DNA from: a virus
Taxonomy: Duplodnaviria; Heunggongvirae; Uroviricota; Caudoviricetes
Length of the DNA: 47,498 nt
Strand: one strand, 5' to 3'
IMG/VR virus record: IMGVR_UViG_2660238269_000006
Shown here: in pieces, positions 4,221 to 46,763 of the stretch
Layout: every line of letters begins with the position of its first letter
Numbering within the stretch: position 1 is the stretch's first letter
Translations under genes and position numbers: made by a program
Notes under the pieces: generated by a model
What the model was told of the DNA's origin: nothing
Database searches by the model: none
Seen by the model: only the letters and a program-made list of their open reading frames with translations

Positions 4221-4805
4221 TCAACAATGAATTTTTAGTAATTGCTCCACAGTCATATTTTTAATTGCGCTCCGGTTTACAAGAGTCCAGCCTTGTTTCT
4301 CCAGATAAAACTGGAAGGTATCCAGGGTGCAGACCATTGCACCATCAGGAACGGTTTCAGTGAATTTGATATTGCCGTGTTCGTCGAGACGGATAACCAG
4401 GGTACGTCCGTCCCCGTGAATCATTTTGTCGGGAGACGGGGCGTTATTCTGGCGCAGTTCTTTCTCCATGCGATCGAACTCAGCGATGTAGGCTTCTTTA
4501 AATGCAGCGGCTTTTTTGCCGGTGAAGCCCATCACCAGGAAAACGAAGCCGTTTTTGGTGATTTGGTACATAGGGAGTTTGCGCCCGGTTGAGTCGGTAT
4601 ATTCACTGGGCGAAAAATTTCGCTCAGTGAATTCTGCTGAACAGTCTAGACGTGAAATTTTTGCCAGTACATCTTTGTGTGGTTTCCGGAAATACTCGGC
4701 AACAGCTAAAGAGGATGTAACAGCACGCCCATTGGCGATAGTAATTTCAGGGTGAGAAAGGGCAGGGATAGTAGCCATGATGGCAGCCTCCATGATGAAT
4801 TTCAT
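4221..4805 (-). CDS. Rha-family phage regulatory protein
   Basis: Rha-like N-terminal motif ITIANGRAVTSSLAVAEYFRKPHKDVLAKI. The ORF is open up to 5072, but the likely start is the ATG at 4803-4805 (MKFIMEAAIMATIP...). Confidence 0.55.
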   Translation of the reverse strand: MKFIMEAAIMATIPALSHPEITIANGRAVTSSLAVAEYFRKPHKDVLAKISRLDCSAEFTERNFSPSEYTDSTGRKLPMYQITKNGFVFLVMGFTGKKAAAFKEAYIAEFDRMEKELRQNNAPSPDKMIHGDGRTLVIRLDEHGNIKFTETVPDGAMVCTLDTFQFYLEKQGWTLVNRSAIKNMTVEQLLKIHC

Positions 4806-5590
4806 TAACTCACCACCGGAGGTAGCAATCTCATGGGTGGTGAGACGCACAGGGTTGCTACAACCGGTCATCATGGAACCCGGCCAGCCTTGCGGCTGCC
4901 CTGCACGCCCCACCATAATCTGAATGTGGCTGTGCATTACGCATAAAAAAACCGCCTGAGCGCGGTTATGCGCCATGATGAACATCGGGGTAGCAATCCC
5001 GGCACCCGCTTTATGAGGTGCAGGTGCACTATAATTCCACCCGTTCTGGTTTTCAATAGCTACATTCAACATTTTCTCTTACCTTTCATCACCGAAGTGA
5101 ACTTTGTCGATGCAGTGCCTGGTGCCTCCAGGTGACGTTAACCAGTTAACAATTAACGCCGGAATACAGAAGTATGCCCGTTACGCCCCGTAAAAGACCA
5201 CTTTACGGTTTTAACTGTTCCGCGTGCGCTTAGCCGCATTCACCGCATCACAAAATTCACTTTAAAAAGGGCGGACATCAGAAAGCTAATAAACTGATGC
5301 CGCCAAAGGTACCACTGCCATTGAAACATGGAGATGTTGTGGCGGGGTTGTCACTCAGGCATATGGTCAACCTGACAACCCGGTGTCCTCAATGAGGGGA
5401 AAAGAAATAAAAACCCCCAGCCATATTTACCGCCGCGCCATTTCGCGGATTGCCACAACCGGAAGCACACGGTCGAAGAAATCTAACGACAAGCCTTCTA
5501 AGGAAAAGACGCCTTCGCCGTGTGCTTTCTGTTGTGCCCTGACTTTTCAGGGTAAATTAACCAGTGGCAACCTGTTTTTACTGGTGCTAA

Positions 5591-17761: not shown

Positions 17762-17837
17762 GGCCCTTTAGCTCAGTGGTGAGAGCGAGCGACTCATAAT
17801 CGCCAGGTCGCTGGTTCAAATCCAGCAAGGGCCACCA
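17762..17837 (+). tRNA. ileZ: tRNA with anticodon CAU, Ile2(LAU)-like
   Basis: 76-nt cloverleaf: acceptor ggccctt/aagggcc, anticodon loop cuCAUaa, T-loop ttcaaat, encoded CCA. Closely resembles E. coli tRNA-Ile2 as recalled; gene name follows the Stx-phage tRNA cluster. Confidence 0.7.
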
Positions 17838-17846
17838 TATCACATA

Positions 17847-17923
17847 CCGCCATTAGCTCATCGGGACAGAGCGTCAGCCTTCGAAGCTGGTTGCGCGGGG
17901 TTCGAGTCCTCGATGGCGGTCCA
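17847..17923 (+). tRNA. argN: tRNA-Arg (anticodon UCG)
   Basis: 77-nt cloverleaf: acceptor ccgccat/atggcgg, anticodon stem tcagc/gctgg, loop cuUCGaa, T-loop ttcgagt, encoded CCA. Symbol assigned by position. Confidence 0.6.
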
Positions 17924-17936
17924 TTATCGGTATTCA

Positions 17937-18013
17937 GCGTTGTTAGCTCAGCCGGACAGAGCAATTGCCTTCTAAGCAATCGGTCACTGGTTCGAATCCA
18001 GTACAACGCGCCA
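17937..18013 (+). tRNA. argO: tRNA-Arg (anticodon UCU)
   Basis: 77-nt cloverleaf: acceptor gcgttgt/acaacgc, anticodon stem attgc/gcaat, loop cuUCUaa, T-loop ttcgaat, encoded CCA. Symbol assigned by position. Confidence 0.6.
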
Positions 18014-18025
18014 TATTTATTTACC

Positions 18026-18050
18026 AGGCTCGCTTTTGCGGGCCTTTTTT
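18026..18050 (+). terminator. Intrinsic terminator after the tRNA cluster
   Basis: aggctcgc / gcgggcct stem (one G-U pair) followed by TTTTTT; shares the GGCCTTTTTTGTAT tail with the hairpin at 18623. Confidence 0.5.
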
Positions 18051-18102
18051 GTATCTGCGTTACACCATTAACTAATAAATCGAGTGCTTATCAGGAGGCT
18101 AT

Positions 18103-18327
18103 GTGAAAAAACTGATGGTGACGATTGGTCCGTTCGAAACAGAAGTTAGTTTTCGTGTTGTTCAGGGGGAGAGTGTACTTGTTGAAGATGTATTTCATGG
18201 AAAATCAACAGGTCCTTATGTAAAAGAATATCTTATCGACGCCACGGATGAAAATATTGAGGTGGTGTACGATTCCGTCAATCACCCTGATTTGATCATT
18301 AAGGCAAAATTGAAGCCACTTTATTGA
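18103..18327 (+). CDS. Hypothetical small protein (74 aa), cargo gene in the stx slot
   Basis: GTG start 4 nt after AGGAGG (alternative ATG at 18115); AT-rich relative to flanks; no recognisable family. Confidence 0.45.
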   Translation: MKKLMVTIGPFETEVSFRVVQGESVLVEDVFHGKSTGPYVKEYLIDATDENIEVVYDSVNHPDLIIKAKLKPLY

Positions 18328-40943: not shown

Positions 40944-40994
40944 TTGTTTTCTGGCATAAACAGATTCAGACATCAGACAGGAGAGGGGGACAGA

Positions 40995-43900
40995 GTGGGT
41001 AAAGGGGGCGGCAAGGGGCACACACCGCGTGAGGCGAAGGACAATCTCAAATCCACGCAGATGATGAGCGTGATTGATGCCATTGGTGAGGGACCGGTGG
41101 AAGGTCCGGTGAAGGGACTGCAGAGTATTCTGGTGAACAAAACCCCGCTGACGGACACGGACGGTAATCCCGTGATACACGGTGTGACCGCCGTCTGGCG
41201 TGCCGGGGAGCAGGAGCAGACACCGCCGGAAGGCTTTGAGTCCTCCGGGGCGGAAACCGCACTGGGCGTGGAGGTGACGAAGGCAAAGCCGGTGACGCGC
41301 ACCATCACGTCAGCGAACATTGACCGTCTGCGGGTCACCTTCGGGGTGCAGTCACTGGTGGAGACCACCTCAAAGGGTGACCGTAATCCCTCTTCTGTCC
41401 GGCTGCTGATTCAGCTTGAGCGTAACGGTAACTGGGTGACGGAGAAGGATATCACCATTAACGGCAAGACCACCTCGCAGTACCTGACGTCGGTGATTCT
41501 GAATAATCTCCCTGAGCGCCCCTTTAACATCCGGATGGTCAGGGAGACGGCGGACAGCACCACGGACCAGCTGCAGAACAGAACGCTGTGGTCGTCATAC
41601 ACCGAAATCATCGATGTGAAACAGTGCTACCCGAACACGGCGATTGTGGGGCTGCAGGTGGATGCGGAGCAGTTTGGTGGCCAGCAGCTGACGGTGAACT
41701 ACCATATCCGTGGTCGCATCATTCAGGTGCCGTCAAACTATGACCCGGAAAAACGCACCTACAGCGGTATCTGGGACGGGAGTCTGAAACCGGCATACAG
41801 CAATAACCCGGCCTGGTGCCTGTGGGACATGCTGACCCACCCGCGCTACGGGATGGGAAAACGCCTGGGGGCGGCGGATGTGGACAAGTGGGCTCTGTAT
41901 GCCATCGGGCAGTACTGCGACCAGACGGTCCCGGATGGTTTCGGGGGAACAGAGCCGCGGATGACCTTTAATGCGTACCTGTCACAGCAGCGTAAGGTCT
42001 GGGATGTCCTGGGGGATTTCTGCTCGGCGATGCGCTGTATGCCGGTATGGAACGGCCAGACGCTGACGTTCGTTCAGGACCGTCCGTCGGATGTGGTGTG
42101 GCCGTACACCAACAGCGATGTGGTGGTGGATGATAACGGCGTGGGGTTCCGCTACAGCTTCAGTGCCCTGAAGGACCGGCACACGGCGGTGGAGGTGAAT
42201 TACACCGACCCGCAGAACGGCTGGCAGACTTCCACGGAACTGGTGGAAGACCCGGACGCCATCCTGCGCTACGGGCGCAATCTGCTGAAGATGGATGCGT
42301 TTGGCTGTACCAGCCGCGGTCAGGCCCACCGTGCCGGACTGTGGGTGATAAAGACAGAACTGCTGGAAACGCAGACGGTGGATTTCACGCTCGGGTCACA
42401 GGGGCTGCGGCACACGCCCGGTGACATTATTGAAATCTGTGATAACGACTACGCCGGGACCCTGACCGGCGGACGCATCCTGTCCATCGATGCTGCCAGC
42501 CGCACACTGACGCTGGACCGTGAGGTGACACTGCCTGAGACAGGTACATCGACGGTGAACCTGATTAACGGCAGCGGTAAGCCGGTGCGCGTGGACATCA
42601 CTGCACACCCCGCCCCGGACCGGATACAGGTCAGCGCCCTGCCGGATGGCGTGGAGACATACGGTGTGTGGGGACTCTCCCTGCCGTCACTGCGTCGTCG
42701 CCTGTTCCGCTGTGTTTCCATCCGGGAAAACACGGACGGCACCTTTGCCATCACGGCAGTGCAGCACGTACCGGAAAAAGAAGCCATTGTGGATAACGGG
42801 GCCCGCTTTGAGCCGCTCTCCGGCTCACTGAACAGCGTCATCCCGCCGGCAGTGCAGCACCTCACGGTGGAGGTGAGTGCCTCAGACGGCCAGTATCTGG
42901 CGCTGGCGAAATGGGACACGCCGCGGGTGGTGAAGGGCGTGCGCTTCAGTCTGCGCCTGACCAGTGGCAGTGGTGAGAACAGCCGCCTGGTGACCAGCGC
43001 CCTCACGGCGGACACGGAGTACCGTTTCAGTGGCCTGCCGCCCGGGGAATACACCCTGACGGTCAGGGCGATAAACAGCTACGGCCAGCAGGGCGAACCT
43101 GCCACCACTACATTCCGGATTAATGCGCCTGCAGCACCGGCCAGCATTGAGCTGACGCCGGGGTATTATCAGATAACAGCAGTACCGGTGCTGGCGGTGT
43201 ATGACCCGACGGTACAGTATGAATTCTGGTTCTCAGAAAAACGCATCACGGACATGGCACAGGTGGAAACCTCTGCCCGTTATCTGGGGACAGGCAGCCA
43301 GTGGAGTGTCTCCGGCCCGCACATTAAGCCGGGGAAGGATTTCTGGTTTTATGTGCGCAGCGTCAACCTGGTGGGGAAATCTGCGTTTGTGGAAGCCAGT
43401 GGCCGGGCGAGCAATGATGCGGAAGGGTATCTGGACTTTTTCAGAGGAGAAATCGGGAAGACACATCTGGCACAGGGGATGTGGGAGCTGATTGATAACA
43501 GCCAGCTTGACGATGAGATGGCGGAGATGAAGACCACCATCACCGAAACCCGCAATGAAATCACGCAGACGGTCAGTAAAACTCTGGAAGACCAGAGTGC
43601 CACCATACAGCAGATACAGCGGGTGCAGACAGACACAAATAACGACCTGGCTGCGCTGTACATGCTGAAGGTGCAGAAAACGAAAAACGGCATTCCGTAT
43701 GTTGCCGGTATAGGTGCGGGGATTGAGGATGCTGATGGCCAGCCCCTGAGCAATATTCTGCTGCAGGCGGACCGTATCGCGATGATTAACCCGGAGAACG
43801 GCAACACCACGCCGCTGTTTGTGGCGCAGGGGAATCAGCTGTTCATGAACGATGTGTTCCTGAAACGACTGTTTGCGGTGAGTATTACCTCATCAGGTGA

Positions 43901-44543
43901 GCCTCCGACGTTTTCCCTGACGCCGGACGGGAAACTGACAGCCCGTAATGCGGATATCAGCGGACATATCAGTGCGAACTCGGGCACGCTGAATAACGTG
44001 ACCATTGCAGAAAACTGCGTTGTTAAAGGAACCATTAGCGCAGACAGAATCATCGGTGATATCGTCAAGGGCTATTCCTTCGAACCTCGTGATGGCACGC
44101 TCCATATTACGAACCACAAGTATGGAGAGGGTTATGTCATCTTTAAGGCGGAGGTATCTCTTGCTGATGATGTTTCGTTTGATCGCAAGCTGATACTCCT
44201 TCCCTTCTTTTTCTATTCAGGAACACTGACGATAGCGATTAACGGAAGAGTTGTCATTAAGGCAGAACCGAGAATTGCTGATACGGGTTTTTCAGGTCGT
44301 TTTGACAGAAATGGCAATGCTGTTAACACGTACACCAACCTCGGGGACACCGTTTCAGGAGTATGGGATGTGGTGGCAGGAGGGGGAGATACACGGATTA
44401 CAGTGACAATGAGAGTTGAAGGTGGTCCTGGCAATATGGGGGATGTGGAAGGGAGAAAGAGAGAGCTGGTGCGATGGAGATATGACGCCTTTACTCTCAT
44501 GGTGGCGAAATCGACAGATTCCGGTTTTACCCGGAGATCGTGA
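40995..44543 (+). CDS. Central tail fibre / host-specificity protein (gpJ-like)
   Basis: N-terminal [21 protein letters not shown] and long collinear similarity to lambda gpJ; GTG start at 40995 with RBS AGGAGAGGGGG; the C-terminal roughly 150 aa diverge from lambda. Confidence 0.8.
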
Positions 44544-44744
44544 CAGGCAGCCGGAATACGGATTGCCGGAAGGAGACAAAAACCGTACATTATGCGCGGG
44601 TGCCTTTGGCTGATGGCCGGAGGGAACACCTGAAGGCCGGAAAGACGAAGGCCCCGGACAAACATTCATGTTTAACCCGAGGCCTGACTTTCGATCTTCA
44701 GCAAATTGAAGGTTAGCGCCTCTCCGTAAAAGGAGCAAGCGTTT

Positions 44745-44885
44745 ATGTCGCAAAAACCGTTAAAAACCACCGTGATTTGTATCACGGTAGTGCTCATTAT
44801 CTGGATCACCCACAGTTCACTGTGCGAGTTCCGGTTCCGGATAGCGGGCGCGGAGATTGCGGCGTTCTTACAGTGTAAGCAGTAA
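44745..44885 (+). CDS. Hok/Gef-family type I toxin (46 aa)
   Basis: MSQKPLKTTVICITVVLIIWITHSSLCEFRFRIAGAEIAAFLQCKQ: transmembrane helix followed by the SLCE-R-R...E-AAF motif of Hok family peptides; RBS AAAGGAG; GC-rich hairpin at 44894-44916 immediately downstream. Confidence 0.6.
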   Translation: MSQKPLKTTVICITVVLIIWITHSSLCEFRFRIAGAEIAAFLQCKQ

Positions 44886-44980
44886 GAAACCGTGGCGGGG
44901 GAGAATATCCCCCGCCGACCGGTTGCTGAGGGTGGTCAGCCGGACGGCACCGTTTTAACACCAACAAACCACAAATATTA

Positions 44981-45014
44981 CCGCAGGCCGGGAAACCGGT
45001 CCTGCGGTTTTTTT
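44981..45014 (+). terminator. Intrinsic terminator between hok and stf
   Basis: ccgcagg / cctgcgg stem with inner ccgg-gaaa-ccgg, followed by TTTTTTT. Confidence 0.55.
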
Positions 45015-45027
45015 ATGGGGGAAATCC

Positions 45028-46763
45028 ATGACAGTCAGAATATCGGGTGTGCTGAAGGATGGTACGGGAAAAGCGGTACCGGGATGCACGATAGAGCTGA
45101 AAGCGCGACGCACAACGGAGACGGTGATTGTCACCACGGTGGCGTATGGTCAGCCGGGGGAAACCGGCAGTTACAGTATGGATGTTGAGCCGGGGTTGTA
45201 CCGGGTGACGCTGAACACGGAAGGGTACGCGCCGTCATATGTGGGTGACATTCTGGTTAAGGCGGACTCTGCACCGGGAACGCTGAATAAATTTCTGATG
45301 GACCTGGAGGACGCACAGTATTACCCGAAAGCCCTTGCAGAGCTGGAAGCGGTGGCCGCGGAAATCCTGAAACGTGCGGAAGCGTCAGCGGCGAGTGCAG
45401 AGGAAGCGAAGAAACGGGCAGAGAATGCGAGGGGACCGAAGGGGGATAAGGGAGACACGGGGCCACAGGGTATTCCCGGGCCAAAAGGCGATACCGGCGA
45501 GCGGGGCCAAAGGGTGAGCGTGGTGAGACAGGACCACAGGGGCTTCAGGGTGTGAAAGGTGAACGGGGAGAGAAGGGCGAAAAAGGCGAGCCGGGAGGAC
45601 CGGATGCGACGACGGCACAGAAGGGAATTGTGCAGTTAAGCAGCACAACGGACAGTGATGATGAAACGAAGGCAGCCACCCCGAAAGCGGTGAAAGCGGC
45701 AATGGACAAAGCGGACGGATGCCTGGAGAAAGCGAAAAACGGTGACGATATCCCGGATAAGGTGAAGTTTCTGAACACCGTGGGAGCAGCCAGAGTATAC
45801 GGGCGGGACATTCATACGGGGGCCGGTGAATGGACCACGAGTGAGTTTGTGGCCTGGCTGAAAGAAAAGGGGGCATTTGACCAGCCTTACTGGATGATGA
45901 AGGCATCACTGCCTGCGGAATTTAATAAGGTCATCACGGATGTCGGACCGGGAAAACTCAATCTGGGAGGCTGCGCCATTGAGGTGATGGGGACGTATAA
46001 CGCAGCCATAGTCCGGGTCACCATCGGCGAATACGGTGGCGATGGTTTTCTGAACGGCACGGTCTGTACCTGTACAGTTTACGGAGACACACAACGTTTT
46101 CACTGGCGGGTGGATTACAGCACAAAAAACAAACCGGATACGGTCAGCCAGCGGGATGCCAGCACGACGCAGAAAGGTGTGGTGCAGTTAAGCAGTGATA
46201 CTGACAGTAATGACGAAACAAAGGCAGCCACGCCGAAGGCCGTGAAGGCGGCAATGGATGTGGCAAATGAAGCGAAAACAAAGGCAGAAGAGGCTGCAGC
46301 AGGAGGTGGTGTTCCCGGTCCGAAAGGAGAGAAAGGGGACACGGGGCCAGCAGGTCCTGCAGGACCGCAGGGACCTGAAGGGGATACGGGAGCTGCAGGC
46401 CCGGCAGGCGCACAGGGGCCAAAAGGTGACAAAGGCGATCCGGGAGAAGCAGGTCCAGCAGGTCCGGCAGGTCCCAAAGGTGAGCGCGGTGAACCGGGAC
46501 CGATGGGGCCTCCGGGGAAAGATGGCGCAACTTCGCTGGTTAGTGGGCTGCGTATCGGAGGGAAGAAAGAAGTCGCACACCATGAGGTGATTACTTTCCC
46601 GTCACTGGATGGAGCACAACCAACGATTCCCGGCATGAATATAGTCCCTGATGGTGCTGTAATTCTGAATATCCGGTCACAGGCTTACAAAATTACTGCT
46701 GTAACTTATGGCTTTCTTCAGGTTCACAATGGAAGCCAGTGGGTAACGATTAAAACGGAATAA
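45028..46763 (+). pseudogene. Side tail fibre (Stf-like, collagen-like Gly-X-Y repeats), interrupted by an apparent 1-nt frameshift
   Basis: ORFs 45028..45555 and 45552..46763; N-terminus MTVRISGVLKDGTGKAVPGCTIELKARR parallels lambda Stf; the frame changes inside Gly-X-Y repeats at the G/C run around 45503-45508. A KGIVQLSS-type motif occurs twice downstream. Confidence 0.7.

What the first reader, a model, noticed from the sequence alone, without database searches (positions are those of the whole stretch)
44600..45014. hok-like type I toxin locus between J and stf
A 46-aa Hok/Gef-type membrane toxin ORF with a strong RBS is followed by a GC-rich hairpin (44894-44916) and a terminator (44981-45014). 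An antisense Sok-like RNA and an overlapping mok-like leader would be expected in 44600-44760 but cannot be confirmed by eye.
Basis: partly seen in the sequence, partly recalled or inferred. Interest (0 to 1): 0.5.

Follow-up and report, generated by a model that had tools for sequence, protein, structure and literature searches.

The report
Prophage hok/sok toxin–antitoxin locus
This is an ordinary, already catalogued hok/sok-type RNA-controlled toxin–antitoxin cassette sitting between the tail genes J and stf of an E. coli lambdoid prophage, a close relative of the experimentally studied hokW-sokW locus of Shiga-toxin phages.

Summary
The ORF at 44745-44885 encodes a 46-aa Hok/Gef peptide (Pfam HOK_GEF E=2.4e-11; PHROG_251 E=1.8e-21). 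It has an AAGGAG ribosome-binding site. A conserved GC hairpin and an intrinsic terminator follow it.

Rfam's 'sok' model (RF01794) matches 44598-44756 above its gathering score. A control on an R1-type plasmid locus shows that this model describes the sense hok leader, so Sok lies on the minus strand, about 44703 to 44635.

Folding closes the mRNA 5' end (44599-44614) onto 44935-44951, the tac/fbi lock of R1 hok mRNA. Across 21 relatives 96% of these pairs hold, and one helix changes by compensatory substitutions. Removing the 3' end refolds the leader into the Rfam structure.

The locus is 77% identical to hokW-sokW of Stx phages, a proven type I TA. The identical protein is annotated 'Hok/Gef family protein' in RefSeq. 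119 complete E. coli genomes hold at least 80% of the locus.

One expectation fails: no mok-like ORF reads into hok here, in Sp5 hokW, or in most relatives.

Verdict: a known kind, low interest. The missing mok and a hypervariable Sok-target loop are the only mildly new points.

The parts
44562..44590 (+). hok promoter: -35 TTGCCG (44562-44567), 17-nt spacer, -10 TACATT (44585-44590). It begins 19 nt after the J stop codon.
   Evidence: Read from the sequence. In every relative a TA-A-T-type hexamer sits at the same distance (7 nt) from the conserved GGGTGCC start. The R1-type locus has TATGAT at the same place. No transcript data.
44598..45014 (+). Full-length hok mRNA (predicted, about 417 nt). 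An alternative 3' end lies just after fbi, near 44955.
   Evidence: The 5' end is set by Rfam model position 1 and by the promoter spacing. The 3' end is set by the only + strand intrinsic terminator found. MFE -191.8 kcal/mol, z=-9.3 against shuffles. Homology with hokW ends at about 44955.
44598..44614 (+). tac element (mRNA 5' end). It pairs either with fbi (full-length form) or with 44646-44655 (3'-truncated form).
   Evidence: Full-length MFE: 44599-44614 pairs with 44935-44951, 16 bp. After removal of the 3' end it forms the 5' hairpin 44598-44655, the same as the Rfam consensus.
44635..44703 (-). Predicted Sok antisense RNA (about 63-71 nt). It has a single-stranded 5' part, then the terminator hairpin 44685->44650, then the tail CCUUCGUCUUU.
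   Evidence: Placed by homology to R1 Sok and to sokW. The minus strand folds into this hairpin (-25.7 kcal/mol, z=-3.7). Takada 2021 reports 71 nt of sokW complementarity to the hokW 5' UTR. The ends were not mapped.
44710..44738 (-). Sok promoter: -35 TTGCTC (44738->44733, overlapping the hok SD), 17-nt spacer, -10 TAACCT (44715->44710).
   Evidence: It has the same layout as the R1 Sok promoter, which I recalled as TTGCGC-17-TATCCT; the R1 sequence itself was checked. The -10 region AGGTTAGCGCCTCTC is nearly invariant in 21 relatives, including hokW. Only 6 of 12 positions match the consensus, so the generic scan did not report it.
44679..44722 (+). Sok-target stem-loop of the hok leader. 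Its upper stem and loop (44689-44709) are hypervariable among relatives.
   Evidence: It forms in the truncated and leader folds. Nine different haplotypes all fold into the same hairpin. Nucleotide diversity is 0.37 at 44689-44700 against 0.05 or less in most other bins.
44720..44735 (+). Anti-SD CUCUCC (44720-44725) and hok Shine-Dalgarno AAGGAG (44730-44735).
   Evidence: Sequence. CUCC/GGAG pair in the predicted folds. Both are conserved in the alignment.
44745..44885 (+). hok CDS: 46-aa membrane toxin of the Hok/Gef family.
   Evidence: Pfam HOK_GEF E=2.4e-11. PHROG_251 E=1.8e-21 over the full length. Identical to RefSeq WP_000078852.1 'Hok/Gef family protein'. dN/dS is 0.15-0.58 against relatives. 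The seven family-conserved residues are present: M1, C12, T14, L26, C27, E28, E37 (logo).
44888..44924 (+). Conserved 3'-UTR stem-loop: AACCG/CGGUU plus the GC hairpin 44893-44917. It is the likely protective 3' end of the processed, active mRNA.
   Evidence: MFE helices. Compensatory changes occur at five pairs. It has a counterpart in the R1-type locus. The role is inferred from R1.
44935..44951 (+). fbi (fold-back inhibition) element. It is complementary to the mRNA 5' end.
   Evidence: On 21 relatives 96.1% of cells pair, against 30-46% when the partners are slid. All 4 pairs of the inner helix show changes on both sides, and 0 of 500 shuffles reach the observed score.
44980..45014 (+). 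Intrinsic terminator: 12-bp interrupted stem, GAAA loop, T7. It lies 14 nt before the stf start codon.
   Evidence: Conserved in the J-hok-stf type loci.

Best explanation
The stretch 44562-45014 is a complete hok/sok-family type I toxin-antitoxin cassette of the hokW-sokW subgroup. It sits as a moron between tail genes J and stf of an E. coli lambdoid prophage.

Shown by sequence or computation:
- A weak promoter would start a roughly 360-417-nt mRNA at 44598. This mRNA encodes a 46-aa Hok membrane toxin.
- The mRNA 5' end (tac) pairs with 44935-44951 (fbi), which closes the molecule.
- Without the 3' end, the leader refolds. It then forms a 5' tac hairpin and presents a stem-loop at 44679-44722.
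- That stem-loop lies on the sequence from which a minus-strand RNA of about 65-70 nt (Sok) would be made, from a promoter overlapping the hok SD.

Inferred from R1 hok/sok and from Sp5 hokW-sokW:
- The full-length mRNA is inert.
- Slow 3' trimming back to the stable stem-loop 44888-44924 activates it.
- Abundant but unstable Sok pairs with the activated leader. This causes RNase III cleavage and blocks translation.
- When Sok synthesis stops, Hok is made, enters the inner membrane and collapses the membrane potential.

The cassette is co-directional with the late operon (Q, lysis, head, tail, J). The most likely trigger is therefore prophage induction, as shown for hokW. Late read-through transcription running against the Sok promoter is a plausible cause of Sok loss. 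The effect would be earlier growth arrest and lysis and better phage release.

Unlike R1, there is no mok reading frame. Hok must be translated from its own SD, and Sok probably acts through mRNA cleavage, through blocking a ribosome standby site (the conserved GAGG at 44679-44682), or both. This last step is speculative.
For: - Protein: Pfam HOK_GEF at 43.5 bits against a cut-off of 22. PHROG_251 E=1.8e-21. 39% identity to R1 Hok over the TM-to-C-terminal core. 65% identity to HokW. Purifying selection on the Hok frame.
- RNA family: RF01794 at 63.5 bits against a gathering score of 59 on the + strand. The same model hits the sense leader of an R1-type locus at 88.9 bits.
- tac/fbi: predicted by MFE with z=-9.3, kept by RNAalifold, and covarying. 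The same folding procedure reproduces the known closure on the 398-nt R1 mRNA.
- Refolding after 3' truncation.
- Homology and annotation.
- Experimental basis for the subgroup (PMC8621323): HokW is toxic; sokW made from its own promoter neutralises it; the effect depends partly on RNase III and Hfq; sokW disappears after mitomycin C; HokW appears in a RecA-dependent manner; phage release is halved in the deletion mutant.
- Orientation: co-oriented with flanking late genes in 33 J-hok-stf loci and 34 lom-hok loci.
- Absence of mok.
Against: - There are no transcript, toxicity or processing data for this allele. Everything functional is transferred from relatives that are 65% (HokW) or 39% (R1 Hok) identical at protein level.
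- The Sok promoter matches the sigma-70 consensus at only 6 of 12 positions, and the generic promoter scan found nothing.
- The Rfam score is only 4.5 bits above the gathering score.
- The NCBIfam Hok models are matched below their curated cut-offs: 37-38 bits against 73-89.
- In R1, mok translation is essential for hok expression. Without mok the translation-control step is unexplained here.
- The true 3' end of the mRNA is undecided (about 44955 or 45014).
Confidence: 0.9

Rival explanations
1. Classical R1-type control. A mok-like leader ORF exists after all, using an unrecognised start, and Sok acts by blocking its translation, to which hok translation is coupled.
For: The frame equivalent to mok (one base ahead of hok) stays open from 44717 to 44878 and ends 7 nt before the hok stop, as in R1. 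In three relatives (L017, L027, L066) an ATG at -76 gives a 70-codon ORF, the same length as R1 mok. The GAGG that I recall as the mok SD in R1 is conserved here.
Against: In the window, in Sp5 hokW and in most of 21 relatives, no ATG, GTG, TTG, CTG, ATT, ATC or ATA in either alternative frame reads from the leader into hok. TAG at 44714-44716 closes the frame. The site homologous to the R1 mok AUG lies in the hypervariable block, which shows no coding constraint. The sporadic 70-codon ORFs depend on a 1-nt indel and have no SD.
Confidence: 0.08
2. The cassette is an inactive relic, as many chromosomal hok loci are. It is carried passively and has no toxin or antitoxin activity.
For: There are no expression data. 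The Sok promoter is weak by consensus. The NCBIfam subfamily cut-offs are not reached. The neighbouring stf gene is frameshifted in this window, so the prophage may be decaying.
Against: The ORF is intact, with all seven family-conserved residues, in all 80 loci examined. dN/dS is below 1. The promoters, tac, fbi, SD and 3' stem-loop are conserved and the helices covary. The nearest characterised relative is active.
Confidence: 0.05
3. The molecular mechanism is the same, but the main biological role is different. Instead of helping lysis, the cassette would either stabilise the prophage (killing cells that lose it) or exclude superinfecting phages by abortive infection.
For: R1 hok/sok mediates post-segregational killing and reduces T4 plating (cited in PMC8621323). 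Hok genes are about four times enriched in prophages (bioRxiv 10.1101/2025.08.07.668861).
Against: The only direct test in a prophage (Sp5) found a positive effect on the phage's own release and no growth effect in the uninduced lysogen. hok is not enriched near defence systems.
Confidence: 0.3

Closest known systems
hokW-sokW of Stx2 phages Sp5 / 933W (Takada et al. 2021, PMC8621323)
   Same: The whole module, from promoter to fbi (window 44577-44955), is 76.6-77.1% identical at nucleotide level. Both encode a 46-aa Hok (65% identical). The Sok -10 region, tac GGGUGCC, fbi GGCACC and 3' stem-loop are the same. Both are co-oriented with late genes in the lom/tail-fibre moron region. Both lack a mok ORF.
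   Different: The neighbours differ: J and stf of a long-tailed lambdoid phage, against lom and orf L0129 of the short-tailed 933W type. The upper stem and loop of the Sok target differ, and so does the Sok 3' tail. The window has its own canonical terminator 30 nt after fbi, where homology with hokW has already ended. The window passes the Rfam gathering score and Sp5 hokW does not.
hok/sok (with mok) of plasmid R1 / IncF plasmids
   Same: The order of elements is the same: weak hok promoter, tac, Sok gene antisense to the leader with its -35 over the hok SD, hok, GC-rich 3' stem-loop, fbi. The 5'-3' closure and the alternative tac hairpin are shared (feature definitions in PMC9841398).
   Different: The proteins are 39% identical over 33 aa, and the lengths are 46 against 52 aa. 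There is no mok ORF, whereas mok translation is required in R1. One is carried by a prophage and the other by a plasmid.
Chromosomal hokA-E loci of E. coli K-12
   Same: They belong to the same Pfam family. The best NCBIfam hit is the HokA equivalog.
   Different: The score is far below the equivalog cut-off (38 against 89 bits), so this is not an orthologue of any K-12 hok.
tisB/istR-1 (ribosome standby control)
   Same: This is a resemblance of proposed mechanism only. The antisense RNA pairs well upstream of the toxin's own structured ribosome-binding site. This rests on my own knowledge of Darfeuille et al. 2007 and was not tested here.
   Different: The sequences and toxin family are unrelated. 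In tisB/istR-1 the antisense RNA is encoded in trans and divergently, whereas Sok fully overlaps the hok leader in cis.

Membership tests
hok/sok type I TA family | Small (about 50 aa) hydrophobic Hok/Gef peptide matching the family profile. | tested here: met
   Pfam PF01848 at 43.5 bits against 22. PHROG_251 E=1.8e-21. The conserved residues M1, C, T, LCE and E are present (logo compared with the sequence).
hok/sok type I TA family | Leader RNA with the family's sequence and structure, encoding Sok on the opposite strand. | tested here: met
   RF01794 at 63.5 bits against a gathering score of 59, model positions 1-157 of 157. Control on an R1-type locus: 88.9 bits on the sense strand. On 21 relatives 74.6% of cells pair, against 29-51% when slid.
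hok/sok type I TA family | Antisense promoter and terminator that would give a Sok RNA of about 65 nt. | tested here: inconclusive
   The positional homologues of the R1 Sok promoter and terminator are present and conserved. The consensus match is only 6 of 12, and the generic scan found no promoter. No transcript data.
hok/sok type I TA family | Long-range tac/fbi pairing of the mRNA 5' and 3' ends. | tested here: met
   16 bp in the MFE. 96.1% of cells pair, against 30-46% when slid. All 4 inner pairs are compensatory, and 0 of 500 shuffles reach the score.
hok/sok type I TA family | Alternative tac stem and exposure of the Sok-target hairpin after 3' truncation. | tested here: met
   Thermodynamic prediction only: reproduce the Rfam consensus structure. 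The target hairpin is kept in 9 haplotypes.
hok/sok type I TA family | Overlapping mok leader ORF to which hok translation is coupled. | tested here: not met
   No start codon in either alternative frame reads into hok. TAG at 44714-44716 closes the mok-equivalent frame. The same holds for Sp5 hokW.
hok/sok type I TA family | Toxicity of Hok, neutralisation by Sok, and RNase III-dependent decay. | not testable with these tools
   Shown for hokW-sokW (PMC8621323) and for R1 (PMC9841398), but not for this allele.
hokW-sokW subgroup (prophage hok of Stx-type and lambdoid phages) | Nucleotide homology over the whole module, a 46-aa Hok starting MSQK and ending AAFLQCKQ, and location among late or tail moron genes on the same strand. 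| tested here: met
NCBIfam HokA equivalog / Hok subfamily (NF007290, NF007279) | Score above the curated cut-off. | tested here: not met
   38.2 bits against 89, and 37.2 bits against 73. PGAP therefore names the protein only 'Hok/Gef family protein'.

The most novel reading that the evidence does not exclude
The hokW-type prophage cassettes, this one included, may form a mok-less branch of the hok/sok family. In this branch Hok would be translated directly from its own SD. Sok would act by mRNA cleavage or by blocking a standby site, not by stopping a leader ORF. The upper stem and loop of the Sok-target hairpin, and with them the 5' end of Sok, would be under diversifying selection or cassette exchange. 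That would let the several hok/sok copies in the many lambdoid prophages of one STEC cell keep separate specificities.
Probability: 0.4. Interest if true: 0.35.

Novelty: already known. Interest (0 to 1): 0.15.

Why it matters
This finding mainly matters as annotation. It adds the Sok RNA, the promoters and the tac/fbi elements to a gene that RefSeq lists only as 'Hok/Gef family protein'. It also shows that the J-stf junction of these prophages carries the same kind of cassette that helps Stx2 phage Sp5 lyse its host.

If the missing mok and the hypervariable recognition loop are real functional features, they would give a natural set of hok/sok alleles. These could be used to study how a type I toxin is controlled without a leader ORF, and how co-resident copies avoid cross-talk. 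That would refine a well-understood paradigm. It would not be a new system.

Tried and rejected
- Generic sigma-70 scan of 44300-45200. It found no promoter on either strand. I rejected it as uninformative, because the R1 Sok promoter, as I recall it, matches the consensus about as weakly. I used positional homology and conservation instead.
- Search for mok. I examined both alternative frames in 21 relatives and allowed near-cognate starts. There is no conserved ORF. A 7-codon TTG ORF (44706-44729) that ends at the hok SD is not conserved either.
- Test of whether the two hypervariable blocks (44641-44652 and 44689-44712) covary as a ucb/dcb pair. Duplex energies of co-occurring and non-co-occurring haplotype combinations do not separate, and the haplotypes recombine freely. 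Rejected.
- Test of whether co-resident copies always differ in the variable loop. They often differ, but two genomes carry identical loops. The insulation idea therefore remains only suggestive.
- A second long-range helix, 44696-44704 with 44923-44931, which would hide the Sok-target loop in the full-length RNA. Pairing potential is conserved (85% against 25-56% when slid), but it is not beyond the shuffle control (148 of 500). I keep it only as a possibility.
- The GC hairpin 44894-44916 as a terminator. On the + strand no T-run follows it. The minus-strand terminator call simply reflects the palindrome.
I repeated it with an alignment.
- Supplementary primer data for the sokW promoter mutant are not held, so the exact mutated hexamer could not be compared.

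Full report
**What is there**

The window region 44300-45300 was read directly and its ORFs listed.
- The 46-codon ORF at 44745-44885 (+) encodes MSQKPLKTTVICITVVLIIWITHSSLCEFRFRIAGAEIAAFLQCKQ.
- AAGGAG (44730-44735) lies 9 nt upstream of the ATG.
- The ORF matches Pfam HOK_GEF at 43.5 bits (cut-off 22, E=2.4e-11). It matches PHROG_251 over its full length (E=1.8e-21).
- That PHROG is labelled 'MokW-like host killing'. The label is a misnomer, because the profile covers the Hok ORF itself.
- The NCBIfam HokA and Hok-subfamily models are hit only below their curated cut-offs. This explains why PGAP uses the generic name 'Hok/Gef family protein'.
- The upstream ORF (40944-44543) is the tail tip protein J. 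The downstream ORF (45028-45555) has the prophage tail-fibre N-terminal domain.
- The GC hairpin 44894-44916 and the terminator 44980-45014 are both present.

**The leader and Sok**

A gathering-threshold Rfam scan of the whole window gives RF01794 'sok' at 44598-44756 on the + strand (63.5 bits, gathering score 59). The hit is on the hok strand, so I ran a control. On an R1-type IncF plasmid locus (retrieved) the same model hits the sense strand, from the mRNA start to the hok ATG (88.9 bits). The model therefore describes the sense leader, and Sok is its complement.

Alignment with the R1-type locus and with hokW places the Sok elements on the minus strand:
- -35 TTGCTC at 44738->44733, overlapping the hok SD
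- a 17-nt spacer
- -10 TAACCT at 44715->44710
- a start near 44703
- the hairpin 44685->44650, followed by CCUUCGUCUUU. I recall the R1 Sok 3' end as a similar hairpin followed by CUAUCUUCUUU.

The minus strand folds this way. The -10 region is almost invariant in 21 relatives. The promoter matches the consensus at only 6 of 12 positions, and the generic scan missed it. The Sok gene is thus placed by homology and has not been demonstrated.

The hok promoter is TTGCCG-17-TACATT, with 7 nt before the first G of GGGTGCC. It is conserved in position in all relatives and in R1. It begins 19 nt after the J stop codon.

**The mRNA lock**

- Folding 44598-45014 gives an MFE of -191.8 kcal/mol (z=-9.3). 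In it, 44599-44614 pairs with 44935-44951.
- The same procedure reproduces the known tac/fbi closure on the 398-nt R1 mRNA.
- I collected relatives from IMG/VR, GTDB genomes and GenBank phages. I aligned 21 diverse modules.
- RNAalifold keeps the 5'-3' closure.
- In a targeted count, 96.1% of cells pair, against 30-46% with slid partners. All four pairs of the inner helix show changes on both sides (for example GC:13/AU:8 and GC:15/CG:6). None of 500 shuffles reaches the observed score.
- Removing the 3' end (44598-44932) refolds the 5' end into the tac hairpin 44598-44655, which is the Rfam consensus. It also forms the stem-loop 44679-44722 that presents the Sok target.
- The conserved stem-loop 44888-44924, which shows compensatory changes, lies just upstream of fbi. 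It is the obvious stop for 3' trimming.

These are the structural features that define R1 hok mRNA, as summarised in PMC9841398.

**What is missing**

In R1, translation of the overlapping mok frame is required for hok expression. Here the equivalent frame is open across hok (44717-44878). However, it is closed upstream by TAG at 44714-44716 and has no start codon before hok.
- The same holds for the other alternative frame, even when CTG, ATT, ATC and ATA starts are allowed.
- The same holds for Sp5 hokW and for most of the 21 relatives.
- Three relatives have a fortuitous 70-codon ORF that depends on a 1-nt indel.
- The position homologous to the R1 mok AUG falls in a hypervariable block.

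This subgroup therefore appears to lack mok. How Hok is translated, and how Sok blocks it, is inferred only. Sok pairs with 44635-44703, at least 27 nt from the SD. The candidate routes are RNase III cleavage (partly supported for sokW), occlusion of a standby site at the conserved GAGG 44679-44682, or both.

**Relatives and literature**

- The module is 76.6-77.1% identical to the hokW locus of 933W, Sp5 and other Stx phages. It is 95% identical to an unannotated locus in phage 1720a-02.
- 119 of 5426 complete E. coli genomes hold at least 80% of it, and in the listed hits it lies between gpJ and the tail-fibre gene. The CDS is annotated 'Hok/Gef family protein', WP_000078852.1, which is identical to the window's protein.
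- Among 87 fetched loci, 33 have J-hok-stf and 34 have lom-hok-orf. hok is always on the same strand as its neighbours.
- Takada et al. 2021 showed the following for hokW-sokW. HokW is toxic and locates to the inner membrane. sokW expressed from its own promoter neutralises it, partly through RNase III and Hfq. sokW vanishes after mitomycin C, and HokW appears in a RecA-dependent manner before endolysin. Deletion delays growth arrest and halves phage release.
- A 2026 preprint catalogues more than 44,000 Hok homologues. It finds them enriched in prophages and notes that mok is hard to predict.

**Context and likely role**

The window is a lambdoid prophage with the late operon on the + strand. 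It holds Q, three tRNAs, endolysin, terminase, major head protein, tape measure and J. No + strand terminator lies between J and hok. Late, antiterminated transcription therefore runs through the cassette and against the Sok promoter.

That is a plausible cause of Sok loss on induction, but it is an inference. It fits the hokW data. I take the main role to be help with host killing and lysis after induction. Prophage stabilisation or phage exclusion remain alternatives that I could not test.

**Variation**

Among 21 near-identical (at least 90%) modules, variation is concentrated in two blocks:
- 44689-44712, nucleotide diversity 0.37 and 0.16 in its two bins
- 44641-44652, nucleotide diversity 0.22

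Most other bins are at 0.05 or less. These blocks are the 5' and 3' ends of the predicted Sok. All nine loop haplotypes keep the same hairpin. Copies in one genome often differ there, but not always.

**Verdict**

This is a real, complete member of a known family. It is already annotated at the protein level and closely related to a characterised locus. Interest is low. The lack of mok and the hypervariable recognition loop are the only points that go beyond what I found described.

Noticed in passing
window 45028-46763: The stf tail-fibre gene is split into a 175-aa and a 403-aa ORF that overlap by 4 nt. The homologue in phage 1720a-02 is one 569-aa ORF. The frame changes near 45500-45515, inside collagen-like G-X-Y repeats. 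This could be a frameshift mutation, a sequencing error or phase variation. The RefSeq relative is annotated as a pseudogene.
   Followed up: partly
window 17762-19645: The backbone resembles a Stx phage: Q, DNA methyltransferase, three tRNAs, then sRNA STnc100 and the 655-aa phrog_143 protein. No stx genes are present. The slot holds small ORFs and a TerB-like 'tellurite resistance' moron at 18707-19210.
   Followed up: partly
window 4833-5021 (-): Rfam C4 antisense RNA (77.9 bits) and isrK (64.7 bits) lie side by side within the antirepressor/Rha-like regulator ORF 4221-5072 on the same strand. This resembles a P1/P7-type C4-ant immunity arrangement.
   Followed up: no
L041 (hok ATGs at 1508, 2002, 2501); L043 and L047 (two modules each): Some IMG/VR prophage contigs carry tandem arrays of two or three complete hok/sok modules about 495 nt apart. 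Where the Sok-target loops could be extracted (the two modules each of L043 and L047) they differ.
   Followed up: partly
L069:2349-2400: This is a hybrid locus (J upstream, 933W-type orf downstream). Its first 50 nt or so of the hok leader (tac and the first hairpin) are replaced by unrelated sequence. A recombination junction therefore lies inside the cassette, and the copy has no tac.
   Followed up: no
window 44641-44652 and 44689-44712: Variation among 21 near-identical modules is concentrated at the two ends of the predicted Sok RNA, with five loop haplotypes and two tail haplotypes that recombine freely. The hairpin shape is kept.
   Followed up: yes
L090 (VT2-Sakai / Sp5 hokW locus): The experimentally validated hokW-sokW leader does not reach the Rfam RF01794 gathering score, while the window and R1 do. 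The paper gives HokW as 51 aa, but the ORF in the deposited sequence is 46 aa.
   Followed up: partly
window 44745-44753 with 44857-44865: The hok start codon region AUGUCGCAA can pair with UUGCGGCGU inside the hok coding region. Both sides are invariant in 21 relatives, so the pairing can be neither supported nor refuted by covariation.
   Followed up: partly
L006:9-1007 and 2034-2825: In the Salmonella enterica locus L006, a member of the same hok subgroup lies between a 332-aa ORF that I judge by eye to resemble the P2 gpD tail protein and a 263-aa ORF that looks like a DNA methyltransferase. If that is right, the cassette also occurs outside lambdoid phages. No profile search was run on these ORFs.
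   Followed up: no
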